Shown here in pieces: positions 38,477 through 45,540 of a stretch of 50,853 bases of DNA (positions are counted from its first letter, which is position 1; each line of letters starts with the position of its first letter). The notes beneath the pieces are model-generated. The model had not been told where the DNA came from. It did not search any database and worked only from the letters and a program-made list of their open reading frames with translations. Origin of the DNA: a virus (taxonomy: Duplodnaviria; Caudoviricetes); IMG/VR virus record IMGVR_UViG_3300037468_000175, positions 1 through 50,853 of that record; one strand, 5' to 3'. The position numbers were made by a program, and so were the translations under genes.

Positions 38477-39596
38477 GGTCCGCCAAGTTACAGAACAAGA
38501 GAAAGCCCACGATAGGTTATGGGTAAGGGTAATGCTTGGACTGATGTTGATACTCGGTTTAATTGCCTTATGGTTTTGGGTTATTAGTCCGGCCATAGCT
38601 GTTGAGGTATGTCCTGACGGCGGTGCTTGGCAGAAGGATGATACAAATAACGGGTTTGATGAAACTTGTAACTCCGGAAAGAAAGTCACCCAGATTTGTA
38701 TAAAGGGTGGCACTAATATTGCCTACTACACCACTAACGGAAATGACGGTTGTTGGGCTAGGTCAGGTATTGGAACTAACGAAGGCGATGCTTGGAAGAT
38801 TGGCGATGGACCATCGTGTAAGGATATATCCCACGCTTCTTTTAAGTGTGAGACTGTTTCACCGACTCCTACGCCTACCCCTACCCCAACACCGACTCCG
38901 ACAAAGACTGATGGTGTGTGTGGCAGCGAACCAGAAACTTGCGATGCTGGTACCTGGAAAGAAAAGAAAGATACCGACAAAGAGTACAAGTGGTATTGCG
39001 AGGGGATTAACGGCGGTAAGAAGATCGAGTGCAAAATGGATATACCCGTTTGTGGCGATCTAACTTACACGTGCAACGAGTGCGAGGCAAAACCAACCGA
39101 AGAATACTGCGGAGAATGGAAATATGAATATTGCACAGGCGAGTACAAGTGCGGCTATGAGGATGACTCCTGGTCGTGTGACTGTCCAGTCGAACCGACC
39201 CCAACCCCGACCCAACCTCCCGTGGTCACTACTCAAAGCAAGCCGGAAGGGTGCACACAAAATTGTTCTGCACCAACTTGTGAGGATGCCATACCAGAGC
39301 CAGTAGTTAACCCCCACGTCTACCGTCAAAACGGGACTGCCCTAGTAAAATGGTACCCCAAGCAAGGTGACAAGGTTCATATTTATTGGCGGTTGACTAG
39401 TGCGAGTGATTGGCAACACTCTATAGCTAATAGTCCCAATGATGGGTATGAGGAGATTAAAGAATTAGGAAATGAAGATTGGGTTTTTGGCCTGCAATCG
39501 GTTAACGGATGCCGACCAAACGGAATTGTTAACGCCTCGACTATTACCGAAATAGTTGATGGTGCTTGCCAAGATTGGGTCTTATTCAGACCCTAA
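38436..39596 (+). CDS. Membrane-anchored Cys-rich extracellular protein with PT linkers and FN3-like C-terminus
   Basis: TM/signal segment, (PT)n tracts, many Cys, C-terminal W...SVNGC.P. Confidence 0.65.
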   Translation: MSKKENKAKKAEFKVRQVTEQEKAHDRLWVRVMLGLMLILGLIALWFWVISPAIAVEVCPDGGAWQKDDTNNGFDETCNSGKKVTQICIKGGTNIAYYTTNGNDGCWARSGIGTNEGDAWKIGDGPSCKDISHASFKCETVSPTPTPTPTPTPTPTKTDGVCGSEPETCDAGTWKEKKDTDKEYKWYCEGINGGKKIECKMDIPVCGDLTYTCNECEAKPTEEYCGEWKYEYCTGEYKCGYEDDSWSCDCPVEPTPTPTQPPVVTTQSKPEGCTQNCSAPTCEDAIPEPVVNPHVYRQNGTALVKWYPKQGDKVHIYWRLTSASDWQHSIANSPNDGYEEIKELGNEDWVFGLQSVNGCRPNGIVNASTITEIVDGACQDWVLFRP

Positions 39597-39614
39597 CGCA
39601 CTTTGACAGGGTAA

Positions 39615-39678
39615 GGCAGTTGGGGTTGGGAGCGTATCGTTGAGGCGGGTAATGGAGTTATAAGGTGCGTTTCGGTTT
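39615..39678 (+). ncRNA. Solo GGCA-(GGY/GTY-NN)12 guide-like unit
   Basis: Same grammar as the 41223-42070 array; intergenic; flanked by hairpins. Confidence 0.65.
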
Positions 39679-39721
39679 TTGATAGTGGGGCGTAGTTATA
39701 CGCCCTACCAATCAGGAACTT

Positions 39722-40525: not shown

Positions 40526-41194
40526 ATGGCAGAAATCATCCAGATACCAGCACCAAACATTCAAATGATTGAGGTCGAGATTAAAGGGACTACTCCCTTA
40601 ATGTTCCACAAATGGTCGGAAAAGGCCAAGGCACAGATAAGGGATAAGCAACAGAAAAAGGCCAAGACCGGCAGACCCAAGAGAGAGCCGGAGGTCGAGT
40701 ACCTGAACTCGTTTTACTATACGCAAGACGGGTTCGTCTCTTTCCCCGCATTGGCGATTAAACAAGCAATTGTGGGGGCGGCTCGGTCAATTGATGGCTT
40801 ACAAATGACGATTATCCGGGGCAACATCTTCGTCGTAGGCGACGTTGATGGCCTGGTACCCGTCTTGGTTGACGGCAAGCCCGTCAAACCCAGTAAGAAG
40901 CTGACACCAGCTAACGGTACTCAAGGTGAAAACATTTTCGCGATTGATACGGCCAACACTAACTTGGTAATGATGGAACATATGGTCAGGGTTGCTCGAG
41001 GGGCAGCCGACCTGCGTTACCGAGGGGCGATTAAGTCTTGGTCAATGAACTTGATGGTCAAGTTTAACGCCGATATGTTCAGCCAAGAACAAGTCGTGAA
41101 TCTCATCCAAACCGCAGGTTTCTCTCAAGGACTCGGCGAATGGAGGCCGGAACGGAACGGCGACAGCGGAACATTTGAGGTCGTACAATCTTAA
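40526..41194 (+). CDS. RAMP/Cas7-like RNA-binding effector (Vipr-like)
   Basis: N-terminal strand IEVEIKGTTPLMFH; C-terminal Gly-rich loop AGFSQGLGEWRPERNGDSGTFEV; directly upstream of the pentamer array. Confidence 0.7.
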   Translation: MAEIIQIPAPNIQMIEVEIKGTTPLMFHKWSEKAKAQIRDKQQKKAKTGRPKREPEVEYLNSFYYTQDGFVSFPALAIKQAIVGAARSIDGLQMTIIRGNIFVVGDVDGLVPVLVDGKPVKPSKKLTPANGTQGENIFAIDTANTNLVMMEHMVRVARGAADLRYRGAIKSWSMNLMVKFNADMFSQEQVVNLIQTAGFSQGLGEWRPERNGDSGTFEVVQS

Positions 41195-41195
41195 A

Positions 41196-41226
41196 TGCCT
41201 GGGGCGCCTGCCCGCCCCACAAGGCA
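41196..41226 (+). promoter_or_regulatory. Leader hairpin of the guide array
   Basis: TGGGGCG-CCTGCC-CGCCCCA stem-loop, extendable by TGCCT/AGGCA. Confidence 0.6.
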
Positions 41227-42070
41227 GTCGTGGAATGGAGTTGTACGATTCGGAGAGGCGGGGGAGGATTGCCAGTAGTGGTTACGAGAGGCCCGGTGCG
41301 TTGTCTGGGGCTCGTTGGGGCGGTGAAATGGTTTGGCAGTAAAGGAATGTTATGTCGGGTACCGGACGTATTTGGTTGGTTTGATTAGGCAGTAGGGGAG
41401 AGTTTTGGTTGGTAAGGTTGGAACGTCTTGTTGAGGTATGGAGTGCCAGTAGAGGAGAGGCAATGTACGGCGGGGCGGGGAGATGAGTTGCTTAGTATGG
41501 CGAGTCACGGCGGGGCAGTCGGGGATGGGTGCGTGACGGAGTGTGTAGGTCGGGCAGTATAGGTGGGTCGAGGCATAATGGGGTTCGTGGCGGTAAGGTC
41601 GGTACGGCAGTCAAGGACCGGATAGGTGGGGTTCGGAAAGGCAATCCGAGTCGGGGTATGTTAGGGCAGTCGTGGCAGTTCACGTCGAGGCCGTATCAGG
41701 CGAAATAAGGTGAGGCGGGGCCAGTTTTGGCAGTAGGGGTAAGGCACGGCTTGGACATTAAGCGGTGGGGTGCCGAATGGCGAGGACTGGCAGTTAGGGA
41801 ACGGAGTGTTAAGGTGTTGTTCGCCTGGGCTGTAAAGGTGTGTATCGGTACTGCAAGGCACTGTTTGGCCGGGACGGGTTGGCCGAGGTCGGGCAGTTAT
41901 GGGGGGCACGGTTCTGGTAGGCAGGTCTAGGAAAGGCAGTCGGGGAGAGTATGGGAGGTATTGGGAACGTAATGGTGTGTTACCGCGAGGTGAGGCAAGG
42001 TTTCGCCAGGATGGAATGGTTGGGCAGTAATGGGTGGTACGGTTGGACAGGTTCGTCAATTTAAGGCAGG
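41223..42070 (+). ncRNA. Array of ~15 guide-like RNA units: GGCA/GCCA delimiter + 7-17 (GGY/GTY/NGY)-NN pentamers
   Basis: GGCAGT/GCCAGT at 41223, 41271, 41335, 41388, 41445, 41514, 41553, 41606, 41665, 41729, 41789, 41892, 41935, 42023 (GGCTGT at 41828, GGCAGG at 42065); strong 5-nt G periodicity; no credible ORF. Confidence 0.85.
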
Positions 42071-42132
42071 GCTTGGTTATGTACCTAGACTAGATTATGA
42101 ATATAATCAAATTAGGAAGGGAGGTGATTCAA

Positions 42133-42552
42133 ATGGATGAAGTAATCAATATCTTAAAAGCAATTGAACAACGTGATGGCGTTCTCCGACCGGAAGTGTT
42201 GGTGGACGAGGCGTCTCAGTCTTCCCATCCCTTACACGGGTACTTTGAATGGGAGGATACGGAAGCCGCCCGCAAGTGGCGCATACATCAAGCCAGGACT
42301 ATGATTATCAAGGTCAAGGTGAGAATAGCTGAAACCACGACCCAGGCATTTCACAACGTCAGGGTCGAGATAAACAAAGTCCCGGTGAGGGGCTATTTTT
42401 CTACCGAACGGGTCTTATCCGATAAGGATATGCTCGGCCAAGTCCTAGCCAGGGCGTTGGATGAATTGGAATACTGGCAGAAAAAATACGAGACTATCAA
42501 AGAATTGGCCGGTATTATCAACCACGATGTCCTCAGCCAAGTCAAAAAATGA
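42133..42552 (+). CDS. Conserved accessory protein of the array locus
   Basis: SD AAGGGAGGTGA; G.L.PE..VD.A....HPLH..FEW.D..AA..WR..QAR..I motif. Confidence 0.65.
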   Translation: MDEVINILKAIEQRDGVLRPEVLVDEASQSSHPLHGYFEWEDTEAARKWRIHQARTMIIKVKVRIAETTTQAFHNVRVEINKVPVRGYFSTERVLSDKDMLGQVLARALDELEYWQKKYETIKELAGIINHDVLSQVKK

Positions 42553-42866
42553 ACAAACTCCAACGGATTCTCTACCAAGTGGCGCACCGTGAATTGGGTG
42601 AATTGGAAGCCGAACGGCAGATTGAGGCGTTATATTCCAGTCAGTATTTGGAAGGAATTAGGGTGGGAATGAAACCGCCCAAAGAGTACGAGTGTTTATG
42701 CGCCAGGTGTGGCCACCTCTTGTTTCCGCAAGCCGATACAGATAAACTAAATGGCATAACCGCAACAAAGGGTACTTGTCAGCGGTGTGGGACTAAGGAC
42801 ACATTCTTAGTTCCGGTCAATGATTTTATGTATGCTAGCGGAGAAGGAGGCGGTGTATGGGATTAA
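42549..42866 (+). CDS. Zinc-ribbon protein
   Basis: CARCG...CQRCG. Confidence 0.55.
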   Translation: MNKLQRILYQVAHRELGELEAERQIEALYSSQYLEGIRVGMKPPKEYECLCARCGHLLFPQADTDKLNGITATKGTCQRCGTKDTFLVPVNDFMYASGEGGGVWD

Positions 42867-43606
42867 AGGAGTATCGGGATATAGAGTCGCTACACATTTG
42901 GGAAAAGAATCCCAGGACTATATCCCAAAAAGACTTTGGCCGTCTCAAGAAGCAACTGAAAAAGTTAGGGCAGTATAAGCCATTGGTCATTACCGAGGAT
43001 GGTACGGTTTTGGGCGGTAATATGCGCCTCAAGGCGTACCAAGAGATGGGAATTAAGGACATCTGGGTCTCGGTAGTCGAGGCCGATACGGAAGTTAAGA
43101 AAGTCGAGTACGCCTTATCGGATAATGACCGAGCCGGTACGTACATTGAAGATGATTTGTTGGCTTTGGTGAAGGATTTAGACCTGGACTTGGACTTATA
43201 CGCGGTAGACCTGGGAGAGATGTCTTCCTTATCAGATTTGTTCAAGGACCAAGAGGTGTTCGATGAGGACTACAGTGACAACCTCGGGGAGATAGTGTAC
43301 GAACCGAAGGAGACCCACCACAAAGTCTCGGATTTGTACCAACCGGACAATAAATACGACGCCGATATCGAGAGTCTGGAGAACGAGGAATTGAAACAGA
43401 TGCTTCGGGCCAGGGCGGCTAACTTCCATAACTTCAACTACGAAAAGATTGCCGATTATTATGCCTACCAGGCGACACCGGAGGAACAGCGGGTGTTTGA
43501 GAAACTGGCGTTGGTCCTCTTGGACCGGAATAAACTTATCGAGAATGGCTTTTCTAAACTCATAGACAAGATTGACCTGGGAGAGACAGAATATGAAGCT
43601 GAGTGA
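42857..43606 (+). CDS. ParB-like nuclease domain protein
   Basis: W.KNPR.I, L...G..KPLVI, GGNMRL.A, DN..AG. Confidence 0.8.
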   Translation: MGLKEYRDIESLHIWEKNPRTISQKDFGRLKKQLKKLGQYKPLVITEDGTVLGGNMRLKAYQEMGIKDIWVSVVEADTEVKKVEYALSDNDRAGTYIEDDLLALVKDLDLDLDLYAVDLGEMSSLSDLFKDQEVFDEDYSDNLGEIVYEPKETHHKVSDLYQPDNKYDADIESLENEELKQMLRARAANFHNFNYEKIADYYAYQATPEEQRVFEKLALVLLDRNKLIENGFSKLIDKIDLGETEYEAE

Positions 43607-44453
43607 AGCGTATGAGAAACTTAACACCATTTACATCATCTCCAAAGGCAGACCCAGGTGCCTGACGGCTCGGACACTAACCAGGATTGGCTACCCAGGC
43701 CAATGGTTTATTGTCTGCGGCAATAATGACAATACTATCGAGAAGTACCAACAGAATTGGGGTAAGGACAAGATACTGATATTTGATTGGTATGAGGAAG
43801 TGAAACATACGGATTTTATGGACAACCTGGGAGTTGAGAAGTATTCGTCTGGGGCGGCACCAGTCAGGAACGCCACGATGGAGATTAGCCGTCAGCGGGG
43901 AGAGATACGGCATTGGCAACTGGATGACGACTATCCGGCTTTCGTTAAGTTCAATACCAAACGAAAGAAGTATGACCGGGTTAGGGATGGGAGGGTACTC
44001 CAGTTTGAAATGGCGAAGATTGCCCTATTCGGCTATGAGGCCGACCTGACTAACGTGGGGTACCAACCCACCTCCAATACCTACCCCGACCAAGCATTTA
44101 ATTTCACCAAGCGGGTGTTCAACGCCCATAACCTACCAAGCGACCCGGATAAGTTTGTCCGGTGGCGTGCCCGAATGAATGACGATACGGTGAACGCTTT
44201 AGATGTATTGGTGGGCGGTGGTTATGAGATATCGGTCAATTATTTGGGAATGGGTACCATCAAAACACAGACAGAAACCGGGGGGAATACTGACCTGTAT
44301 AAGGACAACGGAACGGTTATGAAGACCGCCTATGCGGTTATGAGGTCGCCTAAATCCGTCTCTTTAGTGATTAAGTTCAAGCGTTACCACCACCAGAACA
44401 ATTGGGCTCCAGTTTCGCCCAAACTGATAAGAGACCATTATGCCCGATTATGA
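43593..44453 (+). CDS. TET/JBP-associated (GREB1-like) glycosyltransferase
   Basis: IYIISKGRP, GA...RN, HWQLDDD, W..R.N.D, Q...GGNTD.Y, RYHH..N. Confidence 0.7.
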   Translation: MKLSEAYEKLNTIYIISKGRPRCLTARTLTRIGYPGQWFIVCGNNDNTIEKYQQNWGKDKILIFDWYEEVKHTDFMDNLGVEKYSSGAAPVRNATMEISRQRGEIRHWQLDDDYPAFVKFNTKRKKYDRVRDGRVLQFEMAKIALFGYEADLTNVGYQPTSNTYPDQAFNFTKRVFNAHNLPSDPDKFVRWRARMNDDTVNALDVLVGGGYEISVNYLGMGTIKTQTETGGNTDLYKDNGTVMKTAYAVMRSPKSVSLVIKFKRYHHQNNWAPVSPKLIRDHYARL

Positions 44454-45540
44454 TTATCTTATTGTAGGTGCCGGACTTTTTGGTTCAACTTTTGCTTATC
44501 AAATGACTAAGCAGGGGAAGCGGTGTCTGGTGATTGACCAGCGGTCGCATACCGGAGGCAACTGCCACACCAGCAACCAGGATGGGATTATTGTCCACGA
44601 TTACGGAGCTCATATCTTCCATACCAGCAACCAACGGGTATGGGATTTTGTTAACCAATTCGGGGAGTTCAATCATTATATCAACCAACCTATCGCTATG
44701 GTGGAAGGTGTACCTTACAATATGCCGTTCAATATGAATATGTTTAGCCGGGTGTTCGGGGTGACCAAACCGAGTGAGGCATTCGATATTATCGAGGAGG
44801 AGACGAAGCCGTATCAAACCTTAGTACCGAAGTCATTGGAGGACCAAGCCCTCCAGATGGTCGGCAAAACCATTTTTGAAAAGTTCATCAGGGGATACAG
44901 CGAAAAGCAATGGGGTAGCCCCTGTTCCGACTTGCCGGCCAGTTTTATCAAGCGGTTGCCGTTGCGGTTCACTTACGATAATAATTATTATGACGATACT
45001 TACCAGGGCATACCAATAGACGGATACTCCGGCCTATTTGACCGGATGCTCAGGGGAATAGAGGTGGAGGTGAACGTCAAATACAATGAGGTAAAGAGCC
45101 ACATTGAGGCCAAGAAAACTATTTACACCGGAATGATTGACGAGTTCTTTGACTTCCAGTTCGGTTCACCGGAGTACCGGAGTCTGCATTTCGTTCACCT
45201 GTATAAGGATTGCTACAACTACCAAGGGTGTGCTGTGATTAACTACCCAGGTCTTGATGTGCCGTACACCCGCAGTATCGAGCATAAGCATTTCGCTTTG
45301 GACACCACCTCACCGACCACGATAGTCACGTATGAGTTCCCCGTACCTTACAAGGAAGGTCTTATCCCCTATTATCCGGTAGGCAATAGCCGAGATGTCA
45401 AGATTTATGACAAATATTTGACATTAGCTTCACAGATGTCAAATATAGTTTTTGCTGGTAGATTGGGAAGTTACCAGTACTACGATATGGATGACACGAT
45501 TGACCACGCCTTACAGTTAGCCGATAAGGAATTGCAATGA
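44440..45540 (+). CDS. glf: UDP-galactopyranose mutase
   Basis: YLIVGAGLFG, GGNC, H.YGAHIFHT, Y..KQWG, RLPLR..YDNNY..D.YQGIP, YTR.IEHKHF, PYYP, GRLG.YQYYDMD. Confidence 0.95.
   Translation: MPDYDYLIVGAGLFGSTFAYQMTKQGKRCLVIDQRSHTGGNCHTSNQDGIIVHDYGAHIFHTSNQRVWDFVNQFGEFNHYINQPIAMVEGVPYNMPFNMNMFSRVFGVTKPSEAFDIIEEETKPYQTLVPKSLEDQALQMVGKTIFEKFIRGYSEKQWGSPCSDLPASFIKRLPLRFTYDNNYYDDTYQGIPIDGYSGLFDRMLRGIEVEVNVKYNEVKSHIEAKKTIYTGMIDEFFDFQFGSPEYRSLHFVHLYKDCYNYQGCAVINYPGLDVPYTRSIEHKHFALDTTSPTTIVTYEFPVPYKEGLIPYYPVGNSRDVKIYDKYLTLASQMSNIVFAGRLGSYQYYDMDDTIDHALQLADKELQ

What the first reader, a model, noticed from the sequence alone, without database searches (positions are those of the whole stretch)
41275..41334. 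Guide unit 2 spells VYDPACGSGGMF, the type I R-M HsdM SAM-binding motif
Seen: gtaGT ggtTA cgaGA ggcCC ggtGC gtTG tctGG ggcTC gttGG ggcGG tgaaAT ggtTT = V Y [DE] P A [CW] G S G G [IM] [FL]. Established: VYDPACGSGGMF/L is motif I of type I restriction-modification N6-methyltransferases. Inference: the phage silences the host hsdM(SR) operon, a programmable anti-restriction strategy aimed at host defence rather than at rival phages. The parse needs one 4-nt and one 6-nt step.
Basis: partly seen in the sequence, partly recalled or inferred. Interest (0 to 1): 0.92.

Follow-up and report, generated by a model that had tools for sequence, protein, structure and literature searches.

The report
Phage VIPR guide spelling hsdM motif
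This stretch is one guide RNA unit of a phage VIPR system, a CRISPR-like gapped-code DNA silencer first described in 2026. Its variable bases spell the SAM-binding motif of the methylase gene of type I restriction systems, so the phage may aim RNA guidance at a defence gene.

Summary
That gapped pattern matched at least 120 stretches in genome contigs. All 120 were in frame as VYDPACGSGGMF/L, and all 10 ORFs tested carried HsdM_N + N6_Mtase. I expect about 0.004 matches by chance.

The system is not new. The upstream 222-aa gene is a Vipr protein (PDB 36pp SUSP1 Vipr, profile E 7e-12). The 900-nt G-rich tract is a staggered VIPR vrRNA array.

A relative with 82% identical Vipr (L153) carries the same core, DPACGSGG, in strict pentamers. 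Its NN positions are conserved while the scaffold varies.

Still open:
- Who owns the target, host or a rival element.
- Whether silencing helps against restriction.
- Whether the window's guide works, since it has a 4-nt and a 6-nt step.
- The host, which this motif cannot identify.

The main texts of the three VIPR preprints do not mention methylase targets, and I could not see their supplements. This scan has already noted hsdM-spelling VIPR guides on at least 8 other genomes.

The parts
40526..41194 (+). vipr gene (222 aa): the RAMP/Cas7-like protein that polymerises on the vrRNA
   Evidence: A profile of 47 homologues hits PDB 36pp_D 'SUSP1 Vipr protein' at E 7.1e-12; the single sequence gives E 5.8e-5. 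The AF2 model has pLDDT 91.4. Its best Foldseek PDB matches are Cas7/Csm3 chains, E about 1e-6, TM 0.4-0.5. It matches phrog_4652 and no Pfam family. The protein search found 1204 homologues.
41195..42095 (+). Staggered vrRNA array: about 15-19 units opened by GGCAGT or GCCAGT, built of GGY-NN pentamers
   Evidence: The 5-nt G periodicity is shown. The fitted scaffold PWM is G 0.80, G 0.71, C/T 0.71. Of 185 steps, 25 are 4-nt and 2 are 6-nt; as I read the printed parse, most 4-nt steps follow ggcAG. The pattern [GC]CAGT occurs 16 times. There is no Rfam family and no tRNA. By my criterion, 24 of 26 distant Vipr loci have a G-rich 5-periodic tract beside the gene. The fig. S18 legend of the paper describes staggered arrays with 1-nt overlap.
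41271..41339 (+). Unit 2, from its GCCAG opener to the next GGCAG. The guide steps lie at 41275-41334 and read NN = GT TA GA CC GC TG GG TC GG GG AT TT
   Evidence: See for the parse, and for the hsdM matches. The unit is unchanged in contigs of three sediment runs, one of which may be the source of this DNA.
42097..42552 (+). Candidate vap (Vipr-accessory) gene, 151 aa
   Evidence: tblastn homologues occur in 43 of 106 Vipr-bearing loci, and lie directly after vipr in several, for example L158. It matches phrog_15946 and has no Pfam or PADLOC hit. PDB sequence hits are not significant (E 0.7-0.9).
41160..41189 (+). Weak sigma-70-like site just upstream of the array
   Evidence: It matches 9 of 12 consensus positions. 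The number of such sites in the region (3) is not above the shuffles (mean 2.2). This is a lead only.

Best explanation
Unit 2 is one vrRNA guide of a phage VIPR system.

Known for the class, from the papers: Vipr protomers polymerise along the RNA. Each sequesters a GGY trinucleotide and presents the next two bases. The presented NN pairs bind double-stranded DNA while every third target base is skipped. This forms a gapped R-loop or triplex that blocks transcription.

Shown here: the window has the Vipr gene, the pentamer array and a conserved accessory gene. The NN series of unit 2 equals codon positions 1 and 2 of twelve codons, VYDPACGSGGMF, of the SAM-binding motif I of type I restriction-modification methylase genes (hsdM).

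Inferred: the guide was shaped by selection to bind hsdM genes carrying this motif. Where it binds, it would repress the hsdM-hsdS operon in the infected cell. Whether that operon sits on the host chromosome or on a resident mobile element is unresolved. Whether the window's copy still works, with its 4-nt and 6-nt steps, is also unresolved. A relative keeps a clean copy.
For: System identity:
- Vipr homology and a Cas7-like fold.
- GGY/NN periodicity.
- Gene-array linkage in 24 of 26 distant loci.
- A vap-like gene in 43 of 106 loci.
- The mechanism and the skip rule, read in bioRxiv 10.64898/2026.04.26.720920 (Results, Discussion and methods sections) and in 10.64898/2026.04.26.720927 (abstract and one section).

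Target match:
- At least 120 exact genome hits, 120 of 120 in frame.
- 10 of 10 tested ORFs carry HsdM_N + N6_Mtase.
- hsdS lies adjacent in 4 of 4 loci checked.
- The reversed-pattern control gave 0 of 201 and 0 of 81 genomes.
- With up to 3 mismatches, 18 of 81 genomes of one phylum sample match, or 17 of 80 without the centre genome.

Selection on the guide:
- L153 (Vipr 82% identical) has, as the second unit of its array, [IM][FL]DPACGSGG[FL] in strict pentamers.
- Over the 8 core steps the NN bases are identical at 16 of 16 positions, against 14 of 24 for the scaffold (Fisher p 0.0026).

No self-target: 0 matches in the phage genome at up to 3 mismatches.
Against: - The guide needs a 4-nt and a 6-nt step. 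In strict register it matches 19 of 24 bases (79%), just under the published 80% gap-free criterion.
- My parser places the irregular steps differently and gives 10 of 12 steps.
- Exact targets are rare in samples. Only 1 of 201 genomes matched in one phylum sample, and that one was the centre genome itself.
- None of the other 12 guides of this array matches the 126 hsdM loci above shuffles.
- Three other hsdM motif series are not found as guides in 107 sources.
- Outside the window and L153, no Vipr locus among those 107 sources has the core guide.
- Repressing transcription does not remove restriction enzyme already in the cell (established biology of type I systems, my knowledge).
Confidence: 0.72

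Rival explanations
1. The target is the host's own chromosomal type I R-M operon, and the guide is a programmable anti-restriction device aimed at host defence rather than at rival elements.
For: - The 10 of 10 tested genome hits are typical hsdM genes, and hsdS lies adjacent in 4 of 4 loci checked (two genome, two viral).
- The motif is widespread. At up to 3 mismatches, 17 of 80 genomes in one sample match.
- The phage also carries DNA-modification genes, TAGT glycosyltransferase and Glf, which fits pressure from restriction.
- No integrase appeared among the 10 ORFs of the minus-strand module that I tested.
Against: - The host is unknown.
- Published natural VIPR targets are satellites, prophages and other VIPRs.
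- Silencing comes too late to stop enzyme that is already made.
- Only one of 13 guides points at hsdM.
- The guide is irregular.
Confidence: 0.3
2. The target is a type I R-M operon carried by a competing mobile element (prophage, satellite, island or plasmid). This would be the usual inter-element warfare of VIPR, with the R-M module as the rival's weapon or addiction module.
For: - Six IMG/VR viral contigs carry the exact pattern. Five sit in ORFs of 521-619 aa, and two of these have hsdS beside them.
- In L028 an integrase-family gene sits between hsdM and hsdS.
- The published target spectrum of VIPR is mobile elements (abstract of 10.64898/2026.10.15.759431).
Against: - No other guide of this array hits within the flanks of the 126 hsdM loci, so targets do not converge on one element as they do for SUSP1.
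- IMG/VR proviral contigs may include host flanks.
Confidence: 0.3
3. The window's copy is a decaying relic. Two indels have broken the register of a once-functional hsdM guide, so it no longer directs binding.
For: - Relative to L153, the window has a 1-nt deletion and a 6-nt insertion.
- The strict register gives 79% match.
- Irregular 4-nt steps are common in this array, 25 of 185 steps.
Against: - The two indels compensate. The unit is 64 nt, which is 5n+4 like clean units in other arrays.
- All 12 NN pairs are intact in one scaffold-guided parse.
- The unit is unchanged in contigs of three runs.
- vipr and the vap candidate are intact.
Confidence: 0.25
4. Chance resemblance produced by a flexible parse of G-rich sequence.
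For:
- Three GG steps are favoured by the base composition.
Against: - Chance expectation is about 0.004 hits, against at least 120 found, all in frame.
- Alternative parses give 0 hits.
- Shuffles never reach the strict-register score.
- An independent clean copy exists in L153.
Confidence: 0.02

Closest known systems
VIPR systems (Vipr + vap + vrRNA), type II of Escherichia phage SUSP1 and a Pseudomonas fulva prophage (bioRxiv 10.64898/2026.04.26.720920; structures in 10.64898/2026.04.26.720927)
   Same: - A Vipr homologue.
- A GGY/NN pentamer RNA with 12 steps, within the published range of 9-16.
- NN read with a 1-nt skip that falls on the wobble base.
- A small accessory gene.
- Phage-borne, and no self-target.
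   Different: - No invariant 3' tail or pseudoknot lies between units. Units abut at GGCAGT with a 4-nt step.
- Vipr is only distantly related to the SUSP1 protein (single-sequence E 5.8e-5 over 50 residues).
- The gene order is vipr, array, vap.
- The candidate target is an R-M methylase, not a satellite or prophage regulator.
Staggered vrRNA arrays of other VIPR types (legend of fig. S18 of the same preprint, read)
   Same: Consecutive guides overlap by one nucleotide. Here the final G of GGCAG or GCCAG is also the first scaffold base of the next unit.
   Different: The figure and the type assignment are not visible to me, so I cannot name the type. This array is more irregular than those of L014 and L015.
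Class 1 CRISPR backbones (Cas7/Csm3 filaments on crRNA)
   Same: A RAMP fold and a periodic thumb that interrupts guide-target pairing.
   Different: - The period is 5 nt with 2 paired bases, against 6 nt with 5 paired.
- The guide is gapped.
- The locus has no repeat-spacer array, no cas1/cas2 and no nuclease.
Protein anti-restriction factors of phages and plasmids against type I systems (Ocr, ArdA; recalled, no call)
   Same: If the host-defence reading is right, they have the same adversary, type I R-M.
   Different: Those factors are DNA-mimic proteins that inhibit the assembled enzyme at once. This guide would act on the gene, by RNA-guided repression.

Membership tests
VIPR system | A Vipr protein homologous to the characterised Vipr, with an ancestral RAMP fold | tested here: met
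   The profile hits PDB 36pp_D SUSP1 Vipr at E 7.1e-12. Foldseek's top hits are Cas7/Csm3.
VIPR system | A vrRNA made of tandem pentamers with a conserved GGY and a variable NN | tested here: met
   Lag-5 and lag-10 G autocorrelation are +0.23 and +0.24. The fitted scaffold is G 0.80, G 0.71, C/T 0.71.
VIPR system | Conserved linkage of the vipr gene and the pentamer array across relatives | tested here: met
   24 of 26 viral loci with 31-40% identical Vipr have a G-rich 5-periodic tract beside the gene. L153 has one too.
VIPR system | NN pairs with the target under the 1-nt skip rule, with the skipped base mostly on the codon wobble position | tested here: met
   The NNx pattern of unit 2 hits at least 120 genome stretches, and 120 of 120 are in frame. 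This is sequence agreement only. Binding was not tested.
VIPR system | An accessory vap gene | tested here: inconclusive
   The 151-aa ORF is conserved in 43 of 106 Vipr loci. It could not be matched to a named vap1-6, because no sequences are available to me.
VIPR system | vrRNAs are expressed, processed, bound by Vipr, and repress transcription | not testable with these tools
   No RNA holder is listed.
VIPR type II (SUSP1-like) | An invariant 3' tail with a pseudoknot after each repeat tract | tested here: not met
   Units follow each other directly. The only conserved element is GGCAGT or GCCAGT. I therefore do not file this locus under type II.
Type I R-M HsdM (the proposed target) | Genes holding the pattern carry HsdM_N + N6_Mtase domains and sit beside hsdS | tested here: met
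   10 of 10 ORFs tested carry both domains. Methylase_S is next door in 4 of 4 loci checked. These 10 and 4 were taken from 126 loci.
Phage anti-restriction function | The target lies in the actual host, and its repression improves phage yield | not testable with these tools
   The host is unknown. The nearest cultured-phage Vipr relatives infect Mycobacterium and Gordonia at 34-36% identity. The portal is only 23-28% identical to those of actinophages.

The most novel reading that the evidence does not exclude
Phage VIPR arrays carry wobble-skipping guides against the invariant SAM-binding motif of hsdM. One small RNA could then repress type I restriction-modification operons across many hosts. 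That would make VIPR an RNA-guided anti-defence weapon as well as a tool of inter-element warfare. The main texts of the three VIPR preprints do not mention this target class: 'restriction-modification', 'methyltransferase', 'methyl' and 'hsd' gave no relevant hit. Their supplements were not visible to me.
Probability: 0.3. Interest if true: 0.7.

Novelty: new member of a known kind. Interest (0 to 1): 0.45.

Why it matters
The class is already described, so the locus itself is a new member, from a sediment phage with a staggered array. What could matter is the target.

A guide that reads only codon positions 1 and 2 of a catalytic motif cannot be escaped by synonymous change. At the published mismatch tolerance it could bind hsdM in roughly a fifth of the genomes in one phylum sample. 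If it acts on host defence, it would extend VIPR from rivalry between mobile elements to RNA-guided counter-defence.

The pair formed by the window and L153 offers a natural test. It can show whether 4-nt and 6-nt steps are tolerated by the Vipr filament.

Tried and rejected
- A known RNA family or tRNA: none found.
- Nucleotide relatives of the region in cultured phages: no blastn match.
- Defence-system models for Vipr, the vap candidate and the 394-aa upstream ORF: no PADLOC hit.
- A first literature search on 'pentanucleotide periodicity' gave nothing relevant. The PDB hit name 'Vipr' then led to the papers.
- Convergence of the array's other guides on the hsdM loci: none above shuffles.
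- Exact viral-contig scans gave 0 hits for the MerR-like unit (41833-41891), for the 13-step unit at 41449 and for the L153 guide. These were exact-match scans only, so a target with mismatches is not excluded.
- Three further hsdM motif series as guides in my 107 sources (two motifs reported by earlier scan notes and a shorter sub-motif): none found.
- Host inference from the portal and from Vipr relatives was inconclusive.
- Expression: no RNA holder is listed.
- I did not fold or name the vap candidate. I did not check the 'solo unit' at 39590-39716.
- Supplements of the three preprints (data S3 and the supplementary tables of predicted targets) were not read. They may list methylase targets.

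Full report
**What is there.**
The window is a complete 50,853-bp virus record with direct terminal repeats. Between a 222-aa ORF (40526-41194) and a 151-aa ORF (42097-42552) lies about 900 nt without a convincing ORF. The tract is G-rich and C-poor: G 382, T 207, A 177 and C 135 of 901 bases. Its G autocorrelation is +0.23 at lag 5 and +0.24 at lag 10, while a coding control stays near 0. The motif [GC]CAGT recurs 16 times. No Rfam family or tRNA matches.

A Viterbi parser fitted to the tract gives a scaffold of G 0.80, G 0.71 and C/T 0.71, followed by two free bases. It steps, of which 25 are 4-nt and 2 are 6-nt. As I read the printed parse, most 4-nt steps come directly after ggcAG.

**The observation.**
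The parse needs one 4-nt and one 6-nt step. My parser also needs one of each, but sets them one step later, so that 10 of 12 steps equal the motif. In strict 5-nt register 19 of 24 bases equal the motif. That is more than the maxima (15-18) of 60 step-order shuffles over 27 sources.

All 120 read in frame as VYDPACGSGGMF (113) or VYDPACGSGGML (7), inside ORFs that are mostly about 500 aa when complete, usually in the context G-R-VYDPACGSGGMF-V-Q-S. My arithmetic for 24 fixed bases on both strands of 596 Gb gives a chance expectation of about 0.004.

Further checks agree:
- 10 of 10 ORFs tested carry HsdM_N + N6_Mtase.
- Methylase_S is adjacent in 4 of 4 loci checked.
- The reversed-pattern control is 0 in 201 and in 81 genomes.

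**What it is.**
A profile of 47 homologues of the 222-aa protein hits PDB 36pp, 'SUSP1 Vipr protein', at E 7.1e-12. The AF2 model (pLDDT 91.4) resembles Cas7/Csm3 chains. That name led to three 2026 preprints.

From 10.64898/2026.04.26.720920 I read the Results, the Discussion and three methods sections. That preprint reports:
- VIPR systems consist of Vipr, an ancestral RAMP, plus vrRNAs of 9-16 YNNGG repeats.
- The NN bases specify a dsDNA target with one skipped base per step, usually the codon wobble position.
- The outcome is transcriptional silencing.
- Natural targets are satellites, prophages and other VIPRs.
- There are seven types, some with 'staggered arrays' whose vrRNAs overlap by 1 nt (fig. 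S18 legend).

From the structure preprint I read the abstract and one section. Each GGY is sequestered, N4N5 pair with target N1N2, and x3 is flipped out.

The linkage is conserved. By my criterion, 24 of 26 viral loci with 31-40% identical Vipr have a G-rich 5-periodic tract beside the gene. L014, L015 and L022 show clean GGYNN units of 5n+4 nt cut by GGCAGG. The 151-aa ORF has homologues in 43 of 106 Vipr loci and is the likely vap. There is no tail or pseudoknot between units, so this is not the SUSP1-like type II architecture. It fits the staggered kind.

**Independent support for the hsdM guide.**
The metagenome scan gave L153, whose Vipr is 82% identical. Its array has the same GGCAGT openers but mostly different NN content. 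Its second unit reads gttAT ggcTT gacGA ggaCC ggtGC gttTG tgtGG ggaTC gtcGG gatGG ggaTT. This is [IM][FL]DPACGSGG[FL] in strict pentamers, with no irregular step.

Over the eight core steps the NN bases are identical at 16 of 16 positions. The scaffold bases agree at 14 of 24 (Fisher p 0.0026). That is the reverse of the usual VIPR pattern and argues for selection on the guide content.

Among 107 sources (512 kb) the core guide in strict register occurs only in L153, where shuffles give a mean of 0.43 hits. The guide is thus a trait of this small clade and not of the whole Vipr family sample.

**Results against, or limiting, the reading.**
- By the published criterion (80% or more NN match, no gaps) the window's guide in strict register scores 79%.
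- Exact targets are rare in samples. Only 1 of 201 genomes matched in one phylum sample, and that was the centre genome itself.
- With up to 3 mismatches, 18 of 81 genomes match in another sample, or 17 of 80 without the centre.
- None of the other 12 guides of the array matches the 126 hsdM loci above shuffles.
Neither does the L153 guide.
- Three other hsdM motif series, two of them reported by earlier scan notes, are not found as guides in my loci.
- The host is unknown.
- Six viral contigs carry the exact site, so a mobile owner of the target is possible.
- No integrase was seen among 10 ORFs tested. I did not test all ORFs.

**Population data.**
Contigs from three sediment runs carry unit 2 unchanged. 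One of those runs may be the source of this DNA. Four single-base differences lie elsewhere in the array, and one low-depth contig skips 41680-41736 between two GGCAGT openers. No RNA holder was listed.

**Mechanism, and what is shown or inferred.**
- Shown here: Vipr homology, the array grammar, the conserved linkage, the exact agreement of the NN series with hsdM motif I codons, and conservation of that series in a relative.
- Taken from the papers: filament assembly, gapped pairing and silencing.
- Inferred: that this unit is processed and loaded, that irregular steps are tolerated, that the bound gene is in the host and not on a rival element, and that repression benefits the phage.

**Novelty.**
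The system is known, so the locus is a new member. An R-M methylase as a VIPR target is not mentioned in the main texts I searched. 'Restriction-modification', 'methyltransferase', 'methyl' and 'hsd' returned no relevant passage. Supplements were not seen.

This scan has already noted hsdM-spelling VIPR guides on at least 8 other genomes. Those are AI notes that I did not verify, and one records that a claim of broad targeting partly fell on checking.

Noticed in passing
window 41680-41736: A 60-nt, low-depth contig of run X4 joins 41680 to 41736, skipping 55 nt between two GGCAGT openers. This looks like loss of one array unit by recombination between openers.
   Followed up: no
window 41735, 41904, 41918, 41933: Near-identical strains in other sediment runs differ at four array positions. 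By my reading of the parse, three of them fall on NN positions and one on a scaffold base.
   Followed up: partly
Its exact gapped pattern has 0 hits in viral contigs. Its target remains unidentified.
   Followed up: partly
window 41449-41513 and L153 3991-4064: Another unit pair looks homologous between the two arrays. They share the NN run GA AA AC GG GG GA GT, and the window has one extra GA step. The window unit has no exact hit in viral contigs.
   Followed up: partly
cultured phages, hits H4-H28: Vipr homologues at 34-36% identity lie in 27 Mycobacterium phage records, 5 Gordonia phage records and one cyanophage record. In the 25 records listed, the gene is annotated 'hypothetical protein'.
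   Followed up: no
window 42857-45540: A ParB-like protein, a TET-associated glycosyltransferase and a UDP-galactopyranose mutase follow the VIPR locus. This may be a DNA-modification module, another way round restriction.
   Followed up: no
The October 2026 preprint describes solo vrRNAs (abstract). I did not examine it.
   Followed up: no
L028 3696-4688: In a Dysgonomonas hsdM locus, a tyrosine-recombinase gene lies between hsdM and hsdS. This arrangement resembles phase-variable type I systems (the resemblance is recalled).
   Followed up: no
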